Below are positions 5,421 through 40,671 of a stretch of 48,941 bases of DNA, in pieces. This DNA is from Promethearchaeota archaeon (GTDB lineage Archaea; Asgardarchaeota; Lokiarchaeia; Sigyniarchaeales; SOKP01), in the NCBI GenBank assembly GCA_016839585.1, contig JAEOTZ010000043.1, positions 1 to 48,941 on the forward strand, written 5' to 3'. Position 1 is the first letter of the stretch, and each line of letters begins with the position of its first letter. Both the position numbers and the translations under genes were made by a program. Below the pieces are notes generated by a model, which worked only from the letters and a program-made list of their open reading frames with translations, searched no databases and had not been told where the DNA came from.

Positions 5421-6305
5421 ATGGCTTTACAAAAAGTAACTGTTAAAGATATTATAGAGAAGAAAAAGAAAGGTGAAAAGATAGTTACAATAACATCATA
5501 TGACTATTCATTTGCTAAAATTGTCGATGCGAGTAATTTTGATTTAATTCTTGTCGGGGATTCACTTTCGATGGTTATGCTTGGATATAGAAATACATTA
5601 TCTGTCACCATGGACGAGATGATTCATCATACTAAGGCTGTAAGTCGAGCAGTCTCAAATGCATTGATAGTTGGTGATATGCCTTTCCTTTCTTATAAAA
5701 TTGATATAAAAGAAGCTGTTAAAAATGCAGGAAGATTTATTCAGGAAGGTGGTGCTGAAGCTGTTAAAGTTGAGGGCGGGACTGAAATTTGTCCAACGAT
5801 AAAAACAATGATTAATGCAGATATTCAAGTTATGGGTCATATTGGTCTTACACCCCAAGCAATCTATAAATTTGGTGGATTTTTAGTTCAAGGAAAGACA
5901 TTAGAAGCTGCGAAAAAGCTCATTTTAGATGCTAAAAATTTGGAAGAAATGGGTGTTTTTTCGATTGTTTTGGAGAGTATTCCTTGGCAAATTGCGAAGT
6001 TAATTACAAGTACTGTTGAGGTTCCAACTATTGGTATCGGTGCTGGACCATATTGTGACGGTCAGATATTAGTTATTCATGATATGTTAGGAATTTTTAC
6101 TGAATTTAAACCTAAATTTCTTAAATATTTTGGCAATATTGGAGAATCAATCTCTCAAGCATTAGATAATTATAAGAATGAAGTAATAAATGGCGTATAT
6201 CCTGATCATGAGCATTCATATGAGTTTCCTGAACAAGATTTAGATAAAATTAATGAATGGTTCGAAAGCGTCGATATTAATGAAGAAGCTCATAAATTGA
6301 TTTAG
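5421..6305 (+). CDS. panB: 3-methyl-2-oxobutanoate hydroxymethyltransferase
   Basis: TSYDY, LVGDSLSMV, DMPFLSY, VKVEGG, VMGHIGLTPQ and TIGIGAG..CDGQILV motifs. ATG 5421 (MALQKVT) is more likely than the track's TTG 5376. Confidence 0.95.
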   Translation: MALQKVTVKDIIEKKKKGEKIVTITSYDYSFAKIVDASNFDLILVGDSLSMVMLGYRNTLSVTMDEMIHHTKAVSRAVSNALIVGDMPFLSYKIDIKEAVKNAGRFIQEGGAEAVKVEGGTEICPTIKTMINADIQVMGHIGLTPQAIYKFGGFLVQGKTLEAAKKLILDAKNLEEMGVFSIVLESIPWQIAKLITSTVEVPTIGIGAGPYCDGQILVIHDMLGIFTEFKPKFLKYFGNIGESISQALDNYKNEVINGVYPDHEHSYEFPEQDLDKINEWFESVDINEEAHKLI

Positions 6306-6476
6306 AATTTATTTTTTTTTAGGAAGATAATAAAATAATATTGGAAAAATATCTGAATATAATCTATTTTTCGATATAAATAAAATTATAAATTCATATT
6401 TATAGTTATTATATATAAAAAATTGAATATTTAAAGAAGCAATTTAAAACTATTAATTTAAATAAGTGGACATGTA

Positions 6477-8205
6477 ATGGCTGAGGAATACGACTTTCTA
6501 TTTAAATCCATTGTCGTGGGAGATGGTGGTGTCGGTAAGACTGCTTTAACTCTTCGTTTTAGCAAAGGGTTCTTCACAGAAGATTACAAAATGACAATTG
6601 GCGTAGTAGCTAAGAGGAACTCCCTCTAGGAGCGCAAACTTTCACGTCAAAACAATTACTATTGATACCAATGAAGGACCAATTCGATCGAAATTACAAA
6701 TTTGGGATACTGGTGGACAAGAAAGATTTAGTTCTATAAGACCAATGTATTATCGAGGATCTTTAGGAGCTTTAATGATCTTTGATCTAACAAATTCTGC
6801 TAGTTTCGCCCATTTACCTCAATGGATCGAAGAAGTAAGAGCAAATGTAAAAAGTGAGATCCCTCTATTATTAGTCGGAAATAAGAGTGATTTAACTGAT
6901 GAAAGGTTAGTTTCAATAGAAGAAATTAACAATTTCACAAGGGATTTTAATTTGTATTATATGGAAACCTCAGCAAAAACAGGTGAGGGTGTTGGTGATT
7001 GTTTCTATATACTAGCTTGTCTAATGATAGGATCAGGAGTACCAGATCAATTAATATCCAAAAATATTGTTTATAGTCCTGGTCAAATTCTTGGTGTGAC
7101 TAAAGTTATAACTTCACCAGCTACTCTATCAGAACCAGAATATAATTTTTCTGCACCTCCAGTCCCTGAGCCAACTCCTACATTCGAGCCAGAACCTGAA
7201 TTTAAATTTGAAGCACCTCCAGTCCCTGAGCCAAGTCCCATGGAAAAATCTGAATCCCTTCACATATTTGAACCAGAATTAGAACCAGATATTCTTATTC
7301 CAGAACCAAAAATAGAAGAAAAAGGCGAAAAACAAGTTGAATTCGAGTTTAAAACTCCTGATGAAATATTATCTGAAGGAGCAGAAAAAAAGCCTGTTAT
7401 TACTAGTTCTTCAGATATTTCCACATCTACTGATAGAGAGAGTTATAAACCTAAAGCAGTACCTTTTACTTCAAGCGTTCCTATTCCAGCGCCACCACCA
7501 GAAGGATTTCAAACCCCTCAAGAAATAAAACATGTAGAAACAACTAAAGCTCCTGCTCCTTTTCTAATTACAAAGAAAGAAGAACCACCTAAACCAACAT
7601 CTATGACATTAGATATACCTGCCGAAACTATATCAGAAACATCATCAGAATCATTAATAGATTATATGCCTGAGACAATTTTATCTAAGAAAGAAAAGAA
7701 AAAATTAGCCAAACAGAAAAAGAAAGAAGAAAAAGAAAAATCTAAATTAGAGAAGGAGAAAAAGAACCAAGAAGCAAGAGAAAAGCAAGAAAGACTAATA
7801 AAAGATATGAAAACAACTAAGAAGGAAAAGAAAGAAAAGAAAGAAGAAGTTGAAGCAGAAATACCTATACCAGTACAACTTACACCATCAACTTCTACAA
7901 CATCAAAAACACCTTCACTTTTCCAAGCTTTGACCCAAAAAGCTGAAGAATCAGATCAAGCGAAAACTTCTACCTTTATACCATTTGCTGCAGCTAAAAA
8001 GTCTGAAATACAAGAAAGTAGTAAATTAAGAATAATCCCTAATGTGGCTGATATTGAAGGTACAACTCCAGCAACCCCTGTTGTACCAATTACCCAAAAG
8101 AAAGTTCAACAACCTGCAAGTAAGGAAATAATAATTTGTAAACAATGTGGTGCAATATTATCTTCAGATTATGCTTTTTGTAATAAGTGCGGAACTAAAC
8201 TATGA
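6477..8205 (+). CDS. Rab-like GTPase with Pro/Glu-rich linker, Lys/Glu coiled coil and C-terminal zinc ribbon; spliced as join(6477..6606,6638..8205), 565 aa
   Basis: Exon 1 reads MAEEYDFLFKSIVVGDGGVGKTALTLRFSKGFFTEDYKMTIGV. Exon 2 reads (D)FHVKTITIDTNEGPIRSKLQIWDTGGQERFSSIRPMYYRG..., in frame with track ORF 6745..8205, which carries G4 GNKSD, G5 ETSAK and CKQC...CNKC. Confidence 0.88.
6607..6637 (+). other. Putative 31-nt archaeal-type (BHB/BHL) mRNA intron in the Rab gene
   Basis: Sequence TAGCTAAGAGGAACTCCCTCTAGGAGCGCAA. Central helix GCGU(6601-04)/GCGC(6632-35); bulges AG^U and AA^A; internal hairpin AGAGG/CCUCU. Removal rebuilds the GAC (Asp) codon of TIGVDF and the frame. Confidence 0.8.
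7153..7234 (+). repeat. Direct repeat (22 nt x2, 60-nt period) encoding APPVPEP motifs
   Basis: gcacctccagtccctgagccaa at 7153-7174 and 7213-7234. Confidence 0.85.
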
Positions 8206-8318
8206 ATTTTACATCACCTTTTATTCCCTAATCATAAATTAGTGTAAATCCCGATCTGTATAGTCTTTTTGAAATATTATTATATTGAATAATATTTTTT
8301 TAAATACGATCAGAAAAA

Positions 8319-40515: not shown

Positions 40516-40568
40516 AAGATAAAATTTAAAATTTGTTTCGAATTATTATTTAATGAATCGTATGAAAA

Positions 40569-40667
40569 GCCTCTGTGGCTTAGCGGTATAGCAACAGATT
40601 CGTATGTGTATCAATAAAGATTTACAGAAATATCTGTAGATCGGGGGTTCAATTCCCCCCAGAGGCT
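40569..40667 (+). tRNA. tRNA-Thr(CGU) with 27-nt intron at canonical 37/38 (40605..40631)
   Basis: Acceptor GCCTCTG/CAGAGGC; anticodon arm ACAGA-TTCGTA[intron]A-TCTGT; T arm GGGGG-TTCAATT-CCCCC. Confidence 0.9.
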
Positions 40668-40671
40668 TTCT

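What the first reader, a model, noticed from the sequence alone, without database searches (positions are those of the whole stretch)
6477..6745. Candidate BHB-type mRNA intron splitting switch I of an Asgard Rab GTPase
Seen: the ORF track misses the N-terminal half of the G domain. ATG 6477 encodes MAEEYDFLFK...GDGGVGKT...YKMTIGV, runs into a 31-nt insert (6607-6637; 16/31 GC in a very AT-rich genome) and stops at TAG 6627-6629. The G domain resumes in the +1 frame. Excising 6607-6637 joins G|AC into Asp and gives the canonical TIGVDF. Independently, the RNA forms a bulge-helix-bulge-like motif: 4-bp central helix GCGU(6601-04):GCGC(6632-35), 3' bulge AA^A closed by G6600-C6639, and a relaxed 5' bulge/loop AG^U. 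There is also an intron hairpin AGAGG/CCUCU and exon-exon pairing UGAC(6592-95):GUCA(6646-49). Cutting after the second bulge nucleotide, the established EndA rule, gives exactly those junctions. Established: archaeal mRNA introns of this type are rare, and the classic case is crenarchaeal cbf5. Inference: EndA/RtcB splicing gates production of a eukaryote-like Rab (50-aa dead peptide versus 565-aa protein). This parallels the non-spliceosomal, frame-switching XBP1/HAC1 introns. Such genes would be systematically mis-annotated as truncated or pseudogenes.
Basis: partly seen in the sequence, partly recalled or inferred. Interest (0 to 1): 0.95.

Follow-up and report, generated by a model that had tools for sequence, protein, structure and literature searches.

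The report
tRNA-type mini-intron in Asgard Rab gene
A Rab-like GTPase gene of an uncultured Asgard (Promethearchaeota) archaeon is broken by a 31-base insert shaped like a tRNA intron, and comparison with about 80 related genomes indicates it is cut out of the mRNA by the tRNA-splicing enzymes, which published work documents inside an archaeal coding sequence only for the gene cbf5.

Summary
ATG 6477 opens a Rab-type G domain. A 31-nt insert (6607-6637) shifts the frame and brings a stop at 6627. Removing exactly these bases gives TIGVDF and a 565-aa protein.

The insert is real DNA. Independent metagenome contigs carry it, and three other species have a homologous 31-nt insert at the same site. 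Forty-six genus orthologs (77 of 80 public loci) lack it precisely.

In the carriers both exons stay under strong purifying selection: exon 1 shows 15 synonymous and 0 non-synonymous changes within the two carrier pairs. So the gene is expressed across the insert.

The ortholog-defined borders match the EndA cutting rule on a 4-bp helix that shows one compensatory change. The genome has two EndA paralogs and RtcB. The single-copy dnaG gene has a sister intron with the same geometry.

I read it as a bulge-helix-bulge mRNA intron (about 85%). There is no RNA evidence: no RNA run holds this organism. The claim that splicing gates Rab production (XBP1/HAC1-like) has no support. The intron is absent from most species and looks like a passenger that moves by recombination.

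This scan has flagged the same phenomenon on other Asgard DNA and on other genes of this genome.

The parts
6477..6606 (+). Exon 1: start codon, P-loop, switch I up to Val43, plus the first base (G) of the Asp44 codon
   Evidence: Pfam Ras profile positions 1-34. Synonymous to non-synonymous differences are 9:0 and 6:0 within the carrier pairs and 24:1 between them.
6607..6637 (+). 31-nt BHB-type intron (phase 1, inside the Asp codon of TIGVDF)
   Evidence: Absent exactly here in 46 of 50 genus orthologs and 77 of 80 public loci. A homologous 31-nt insert sits at the same site in G033, G013 and G015. Single copy in the genome.
6638..8205 (+). Exon 2: the rest of the Asp codon, G3-G5 motifs, about 390 aa of Pro/Glu-rich linker, a C-terminal zinc ribbon and the stop codon
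   Evidence: Pfam Ras positions 38-157 and Zn_Ribbon_1. G-domain omega about 0.03.
6601..6604 (+). 5' strand (exonic) of the central 4-bp helix, GCGU
   Evidence: Pairs with 6632-6635. 100% paired in the four carriers, and RNAalifold finds it unprompted. Position 6602 (Gly codon third base) is C where the intron has G, and U where it has A.
6632..6635 (+). 3' strand (intronic) of the central 4-bp helix, GCGC
   Evidence: A metagenome variant reads GCGU here, which keeps a G-U pair (loose end of X5 at 6627).
6605..6607 (+). 5' bulge AG|U; predicted cut after G6606
   Evidence: A strict 3-nt bulge in G013 and G015. In G000 and G033 it widens to a 5-nt/1-nt internal loop, because the two intron pairs next to it are lost.
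6636..6638 (+). 3' bulge AA|A; predicted cut after A6637, closed by G6600-C6639
   Evidence: The second bulge base varies (A, A, G, C) among the carriers, while the spliced codon stays GAC.
6610..6630 (+). Intron hairpin (helix h'): core 6613-6617 with 6623-6627
   Evidence: The conserved CUA...UAG pairs explain the invariant in-frame TAG.
6485..6669 (.). Divergent DNA patch around the intron site between carriers (G000, G033) and their intron-less sister pair (G050, G048)
   Evidence: 24-26 differences in 154 spliced nt, against 14-23 in 378 nt for the rest of the G domain; Fisher p from 7e-6 to 2e-4.

Best explanation
Positions 6607-6637 are a bulge-helix-bulge (tRNA-type) intron inside the coding sequence of a Rab-like small GTPase gene. 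The proposed steps, all inferred, are as follows. The pre-mRNA folds so that exon bases 6601-6604 pair with intron bases 6632-6635, leaving a bulge on each side. The splicing endonuclease EndA cuts after the second base of each bulge (after G6606 and after A6637). In this genome EndA is probably a two-subunit, broad-specificity type. RtcB joins the exons, re-creating the Asp codon GAC and the motif TIGVDF, and probably circularises the 31-nt intron. Only spliced mRNA gives the 565-aa protein; unspliced mRNA gives a 50-aa peptide. Shown here: the insert is real DNA; its borders; its patchy but homologous occurrence; purifying selection on both exons in the carriers; the helix, with one compensatory change; and the presence of the enzymes. 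Not shown: cutting, joining and any control of them. The intron looks dispensable and appears to move between related species by homologous recombination of a short patch.
For: (1) Precise presence or absence. Four of 50 genus orthologs carry a 31-nt insert at the same base. The other 46 read GGN GTN GAY TTY with nothing extra. Among 80 public Promethearchaeota loci the split is 3 with and 77 without.
(2) With the insert removed, all four carriers give full-length proteins of 531-565 aa with the same N-terminus and C-terminal zinc ribbon.
(3) Selection. Exon 1 shows 9:0 synonymous to non-synonymous differences for G000/G033, 6:0 for G013/G015, and 24:1 between the clades. Exon 2 G-domain omega is 0.02-0.04.
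(4) Borders defined by the orthologs coincide with the rule 'cut after the second bulge base' on a 4-bp helix. By chance this happens at 2.6% of positions, and at 0.02% for a helix this G+C-rich. The same rule is described for cbf5 (PMC2738675).
(5) RNAalifold finds the central helix unprompted, with a C-G to U-A double change. The helix is paired in 16 of 16 cells.
(6) G013 and G015 show a textbook 3-4-3 BHB with a 10-position intron stem.
(7) The genome has two PF01974 EndA paralogs. One has Tyr/His/Lys and is closest to crenarchaeal EndA chains. The other lacks the His. There is also one RtcB.
(8) The single-copy dnaG gene of the same genome has a 40-nt insert with the same layout: GGCC [AG|A] ... 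GGCU [AA|A]. It is present in 10 of 30 genus loci. The exonic Gly codon is GGC in 10 of 10 carriers and in 0 of 20 non-carriers.
(9) The insert is present in DNA contigs of other samples and of another study.
Against: There is no RNA-level evidence of any kind. In G000 and G033 the motif is relaxed: the 5' bulge is a 5/1 internal loop, and the outer helix is one G-C pair followed by U-U mismatches. The BHB fold is the minimum-energy fold only in G033. In the other three carriers it lies 3-5 kcal/mol above a competing fold, and the G000 region folds no better than shuffles at the usual threshold (z = -1.8). Covariation rests on a single event between two clades. With four sequences the shuffle controls are not significant.
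Confidence: 0.85

Rival explanations
1. Programmed +1 ribosomal frameshift at the conserved in-frame UAG (6627-6629). The ribosome reads into the insert, slips +1 at CUC-UAG (CCU/CCC-UAG in G013 and G015) and continues in the exon 2 frame. The result is a Rab with 10 extra residues in switch I.
For: A +1 shift at exactly this stop would restore the downstream frame. The TAG is invariant in all four carriers. In G000 the downstream frame is open from 6610.
Against: The invariant Asp of TIGVDF would become Asn (G000, G033), Asp (G013) or His (G015), and the 10 inserted residues differ strongly between the clades. Meanwhile neighbouring codons evolve at omega about 0.03. Three of 5 within-clade changes in the insert would be non-synonymous. 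The P-site codon is not conserved. The invariant TAG is explained by the CUA/UAG pairs of the intron stem.
Confidence: 0.04
2. The RNA is spliced at these borders, but not by EndA/RtcB. Another nuclease and ligase would do it, or a self-processing RNA.
For: The motif in G000 is relaxed and is not the minimum-energy fold. No enzyme test was possible.
Against: 31 nt is far too small for a group I or group II intron. Rfam finds nothing here. The geometry and cut positions fit EndA in all four carriers and in the dnaG sister intron. EndA and RtcB are present.
Confidence: 0.05
3. Dead or dying gene: the insert is a disabling mutation and the locus is a pseudogene, or is translated as separate pieces.
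For: As annotated, the gene is truncated (50 aa plus a 486-aa ORF from ATG 6745). The genome has about 50 other Ras-family paralogs that could compensate.
Against: The same insert is kept in four species over dS 0.25-0.4 within pairs, and to saturation between clades. There are no non-synonymous changes in exon 1 within the pairs and no second lesion in 531-565 codons. No start codon lies at the start of exon 2; the first ATG comes after the G3 motif.
Confidence: 0.03
4. Translational bypass (hopping) over the insert, as in phage T4 gene 60.
For: A stop codon and a hairpin lie just after the break.
Against: No landing codon matching the take-off codon GUA lies before 6640. A hop cannot build the Asp codon from G6606 plus A6638-C6639.
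Confidence: 0.01

Closest known systems
cbf5 pre-mRNA intron of Crenarchaeota (Watanabe 2002; Yoshinari 2006; Yokobori 2009, PMC2738675)
   Same: A short BHB intron inside a coding sequence, often with a relaxed motif. The cut falls between the second and third bulge bases. The intron sits between the first and second base of an Asp codon. Its distribution is patchy, with gain and loss. The host has a hetero-oligomeric, broad-specificity EndA.
   Different: A different gene (a Rab-like GTPase, a eukaryotic signature protein) and a different phylum (Promethearchaeota). Splicing is not shown experimentally here. A recombination patch is tied to presence or absence.
BHB intron in the 5' UTR of HVO_1309, Haloferax volcanii (PMC7714728)
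   Same: EndA substrate within an mRNA; the circular excised intron was detected, and the BHB sites were cut by EndA in vitro.
   Different: That intron lies in the untranslated leader and does not interrupt a reading frame. It is 46 nt long.
Archaeal tRNA BHB introns, including the heavily interrupted tRNA genes of Asgard archaea (bioRxiv 10.64898/2026.10.13.758758)
   Same: The same motif and the same enzymes. That preprint reports two EndA paralogues in most Asgard genomes. This genome also has many interrupted tRNA genes, one of them in the window (40568-40668).
   Different: The host RNA here is a translated mRNA. No tRNA body helps recognition, and translation competes with folding.
HAC1/XBP1 unconventional mRNA splicing (Ire1 plus tRNA ligase or RtcB); recalled from general knowledge
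   Same: A non-spliceosomal, frame-changing mRNA intron, with exons joined by a tRNA-type ligase.
   Different: The nuclease there is Ire1, acting on twin stem-loops, and the event is stress-regulated. No regulation and no Ire1-type sites are shown here. This is an analogy of outcome only.

Membership tests
Archaeal BHB (EndA-type) intron | [quoted passage not shown] | tested here: met
   The helix and the 3' bulge are present in all four carriers. The 5' bulge is strictly 3 nt in G013 and G015 and widens to a 5/1 loop in G000 and G033, that is, a relaxed motif.
Archaeal BHB (EndA-type) intron | Cutting after the second base of each bulge yields the functional exon junction | tested here: met
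   The predicted junction equals the sequence of the 46 intron-less genus orthologs (77 of 80 public loci) and restores GAC/TIGVDF. Chance expectation is 2.6%, or 0.02% for a helix this G+C-rich.
Archaeal BHB (EndA-type) intron | Flanking helices h (exon side) and h' (intron side) | tested here: inconclusive
   Helix h' is present (72% of cells paired). Helix h is weak: one invariant G-C pair, then mismatches, with 60% of cells paired. The BHB is not the minimum-energy fold in 3 of 4 carriers.
Archaeal BHB (EndA-type) intron | Base-pair covariation supporting the helix | tested here: inconclusive
   There is one compensatory pair (C-G to U-A), a single event, and the shuffle controls are not significant with four sequences. 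The sister dnaG intron shows exon codon GGC only in carriers, 10 of 10 against 0 of 20.
Archaeal BHB (EndA-type) intron | The host encodes the splicing endonuclease and RtcB ligase | tested here: met
   Two PF01974 paralogs (103 and 69 bits) and one RtcB (561 bits) in G000. One paralog lacks the catalytic His by eye.
Archaeal BHB (EndA-type) intron | Cleavage and ligation observed: spliced RNA and a circular intron | not testable with these tools
   No RNA run holds this DNA.
Rab/Ras small GTPase (Pfam PF00071) | A complete G domain with G1-G5 motifs | tested here: met
   The intron-less ortholog scores 179 bits over profile positions 1-157. Exon 1 covers positions 1-34 and exon 2 covers 38-157. 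The best solved relatives are Rab8A, Rab1 and a Thorarchaeota Rab. There is no prenylation end; the protein ends in a zinc ribbon.
Programmed +1 frameshift site | A conserved slippery or hungry-codon context, and a product under selection across the shifted stretch | tested here: not met
   The P-site codon differs (CUC against CCU/CCC). The implied residues, including the invariant Asp, vary among the carriers.

The most novel reading that the evidence does not exclude
The intron is more than a passenger. Splicing by EndA/RtcB would be slow or conditional and would set how much Rab-like GTPase is made, as an XBP1/HAC1-like gate. The relaxed motif of G000 and G033 would be tuned for that. More broadly, mobile tRNA-type introns would spread by recombination into eukaryote-like genes of the closest archaeal relatives of eukaryotes.
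Probability: 0.1. Interest if true: 0.9.

Novelty: new member of a known kind. Interest (0 to 1): 0.7.

Why it matters
In the papers I could search, splicing of an archaeal coding sequence by the tRNA machinery is documented for one gene, cbf5 in Crenarchaeota, plus one 5' UTR case in Haloferax. Here the same kind of intron sits in a eukaryotic signature gene of Promethearchaeota, the archaeal lineage nearest to eukaryotes, and in at least one core gene (dnaG) of the same genome. If confirmed by RNA data, this would have three consequences. mRNA splicing would be a routine part of gene expression in these organisms. Gene callers would be systematically truncating such genes or calling them pseudogenes; this one appears as a 50-aa ORF plus a 486-aa ORF. 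The presence/absence polymorphism with a recombination patch would give a tractable case of how such introns are gained or lost.

Tried and rejected
- RNA evidence: no RNA holder was listed for window 6300-8300, so only DNA contigs could be laid.
- More alleles: a scan of JGI metagenome contigs with a junction pattern gave two hits, both unrelated G+C-rich sequences.
- Repeat or mobile-element origin: the insert and its core have no other copy in the 3.45-Mb genome at up to 8 and up to 4 mismatches respectively.
- Genome-wide census by motif plus ORF fusion. A strict hBHBh' scan gave 12,817 hits. It missed this intron and the dnaG and GAPDH ones. A relaxed scan gave 793 hits in the 49-kb window alone. 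Motif-only searches are useless here, and homology is needed.
- Other split Ras-family genes: tblastn of the spliced G domain found about 50 paralogs, and only this one is split in this way.
- Thermodynamic support: the BHB is the minimum-energy fold in one of four carriers. I do not count folding energy as evidence for the motif.
- Literature: four searches found no paper on BHB introns in Asgard protein-coding genes.

Full report
**What is there**

The window is contig C27 of a 3.45-Mb, 99%-complete genome with 29% G+C. Public records of its relatives are titled Promethearchaeota (Asgard) MAGs from marine sediments.

From ATG 6477 the + strand encodes the N-terminal 43 residues of a Rab-type G domain (P-loop GDGGVGKT...YKMTIGV). 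It then runs into extra sequence and stops at TAG 6627-6629. The rest of the G domain and a long tail are open in the +1 frame to 8205.

Removing exactly 6607-6637 (31 nt, 16 G+C) joins G6606 to A6638-C6639 as an Asp codon. This gives TIGVDF and a 565-aa protein. Pfam places exon 1 on Ras profile positions 1-34 and exon 2 on positions 38-157. A zinc ribbon lies at the C-terminus. The nearest solved structures are Rab8A, Rab1 and a Thorarchaeota Rab.

**The insert is real DNA**

Contigs from another sample of the same study span the insert without a difference. Contigs from a different study carry variant copies of it. A third study has an intron-less relative. The insert has no second copy in the genome.

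**Comparative evidence**

Fifty of the 54 genomes of the genus have the ortholog.

- Forty-six read GGN GTN GAY TTY with nothing extra.
- Four (G000, G033, G013, G015) carry a 31-nt insert at the same base.
- In a second, named collection the split is 3 with and 77 without.

The four inserts are clearly homologous. With the insert removed, all four genes give full-length proteins with the same ends.

Within the carrier pairs, exon 1 has 9 and 6 synonymous differences and no non-synonymous ones. Between the two carrier clades the count is 24 to 1. The G-domain part of exon 2 evolves at omega 0.02-0.04. A gene kept this way across a frame-breaking insert must be expressed across it.

**Why a BHB intron**

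The borders fixed by the intron-less orthologs fall after the second base of two bulges, AG|U and AA|A. The bulges lie on opposite strands of a 4-bp helix (6601-04 with 6632-35). This is the cutting rule of the archaeal splicing endonuclease, as also described for cbf5.

For two fixed borders 31 nt apart in this genome, such a helix occurs at 2.6% of positions. One as G+C-rich as this occurs at 0.02%.

RNAalifold finds the helix unprompted. The only exonic helix position free to vary is the third base of the Gly codon. It is C where the intron has G, and U where the intron has A.

G013 and G015 show a textbook 3-4-3 motif with a long intron stem. G000 and G033 have lost the two stem pairs next to the 5' bulge and have a weak outer helix, so their motif is relaxed.

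The genome has two EndA paralogs. One has Tyr/His/Lys and is closest to crenarchaeal enzymes. The other lacks the His by eye. This fits the two-subunit, broad-specificity type. There is one RtcB. ARAGORN calls introns in 18 of the 29 tRNA genes it finds.

**A sister case in the same genome**

The single-copy dnaG gene (contig C61) carries a 40-nt insert between ...AIFGQ and TEGLL... It has the same layout: GGCC [AG|A] ... GGCU [AA|A].

Ten of 30 genus loci carry it, and the rest lack it precisely. The exonic Gly codon is GGC in all 10 carriers and in none of the 20 non-carriers, as expected if it must pair with the intron. A 30-nt insert near the 3' end of the GAPDH gene has the same geometry.

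So this organism very probably splices several mRNAs. Among about 50 Ras-family paralogs, only this one is split in this way.

**Weak points**

- There is no RNA run for this organism, so cutting and joining are inferred.
- The BHB is the minimum-energy fold in only one of the four carriers, and lies 3-5 kcal/mol above a competing fold in the others.
- Covariation is a single event and is not significant in the shuffle controls.
- Motif-only scans are hopelessly unspecific. The case rests on the comparative data, not on the fold.

**Rivals**

- A +1 frameshift at the conserved UAG would restore the frame. But it would replace the invariant Asp by Asn, Asp or His in different carriers, and would insert ten unconserved residues into switch I. 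The invariant TAG is explained by the intron stem.
- Pseudogene or split-protein readings conflict with the selection data and with the lack of a start codon at exon 2.
- Ribosome hopping cannot rebuild the Asp codon.

**Function and history**

Nothing supports a regulatory gate. The intron is absent from most species, and close sister pairs differ in it.

Around the intron site (6485-6669), the carriers G000 and G033 differ from their intron-less sisters G050 and G048 about 3.5 times more than in the rest of the G domain (Fisher p from 7e-6 to 2e-4). No such excess appears within either pair.

Against the outgroup G057, the intron-less pair shows normal divergence in this patch, and the carriers show somewhat more. 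This suggests that a short intron-bearing patch was imported by homologous recombination. Loss by an intron-less patch is not excluded.

**Known or new**

In the searchable literature, BHB introns in archaeal mRNAs are documented for cbf5 (coding sequence, Crenarchaeota; PMC2738675) and for the 5' UTR of HVO_1309 (PMC7714728). A 2026 preprint treats Asgard tRNA introns only.

Earlier notes of this scan report the same phenomenon on other Asgard DNA, on other genes of this genome, and on the G033 copy of this very intron. I used them as leads and tested the dnaG and G033 cases myself.

I class the finding as a new member of a known kind, well supported by comparison but not yet by RNA.

Noticed in passing
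L059:1472-1511 (- strand) = G000 contig C61 45771-45810: A 40-nt BHB-type insert in the single-copy dnaG gene, between ...AIFGQ and TEGLL... Its layout is GGCC[AG|A]...GGCU[AA|A]. It is present in 10 of 30 genus loci. The exon Gly codon is GGC in all carriers and in no non-carrier.
   Followed up: yes
L060:952-981 (+) = G000 contig C90 43551-43580: A 30-nt in-frame insert with a TAA near the 3' end of the GAPDH gene. Its layout is GUGG[UA|A]...CCAU[AU|U]. Removal restores ...SWYDNEWGF. It was not compared with relatives.
   Followed up: partly
window 6485-6669: This patch is 3.5 times more divergent than its flanks between the intron-bearing pair (G000, G033) and the intron-less sister pair (G050, G048). 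It looks like a short recombination tract tied to intron gain or loss.
   Followed up: partly
window 40568-40668 (+): A tRNA-Thr(CGU) gene with a 27-nt intron at position 37/38. Plain ARAGORN missed it; Rfam and ARAGORN with introns allowed found it. By hand, its central helix has three pairs and a G-A mismatch. Genome-wide, ARAGORN calls introns in 18 of 29 tRNAs.
   Followed up: partly
window 7000-8205 (+): This Rab-like protein has no prenylation end. Instead it has about 390 aa of Pro/Glu/Lys-rich linker and a C-terminal CxxC...CxxC zinc ribbon. This architecture is conserved in all 37 full-length genus orthologs translated.
   Followed up: partly
G000 contig C89 43502-43825 (-) and contig C38 19291-19614 (-): Two Ras-family paralogs match the Rab query only from residue 71 onward. 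They may have a divergent N-terminus or another interruption. I did not examine them.
   Followed up: no
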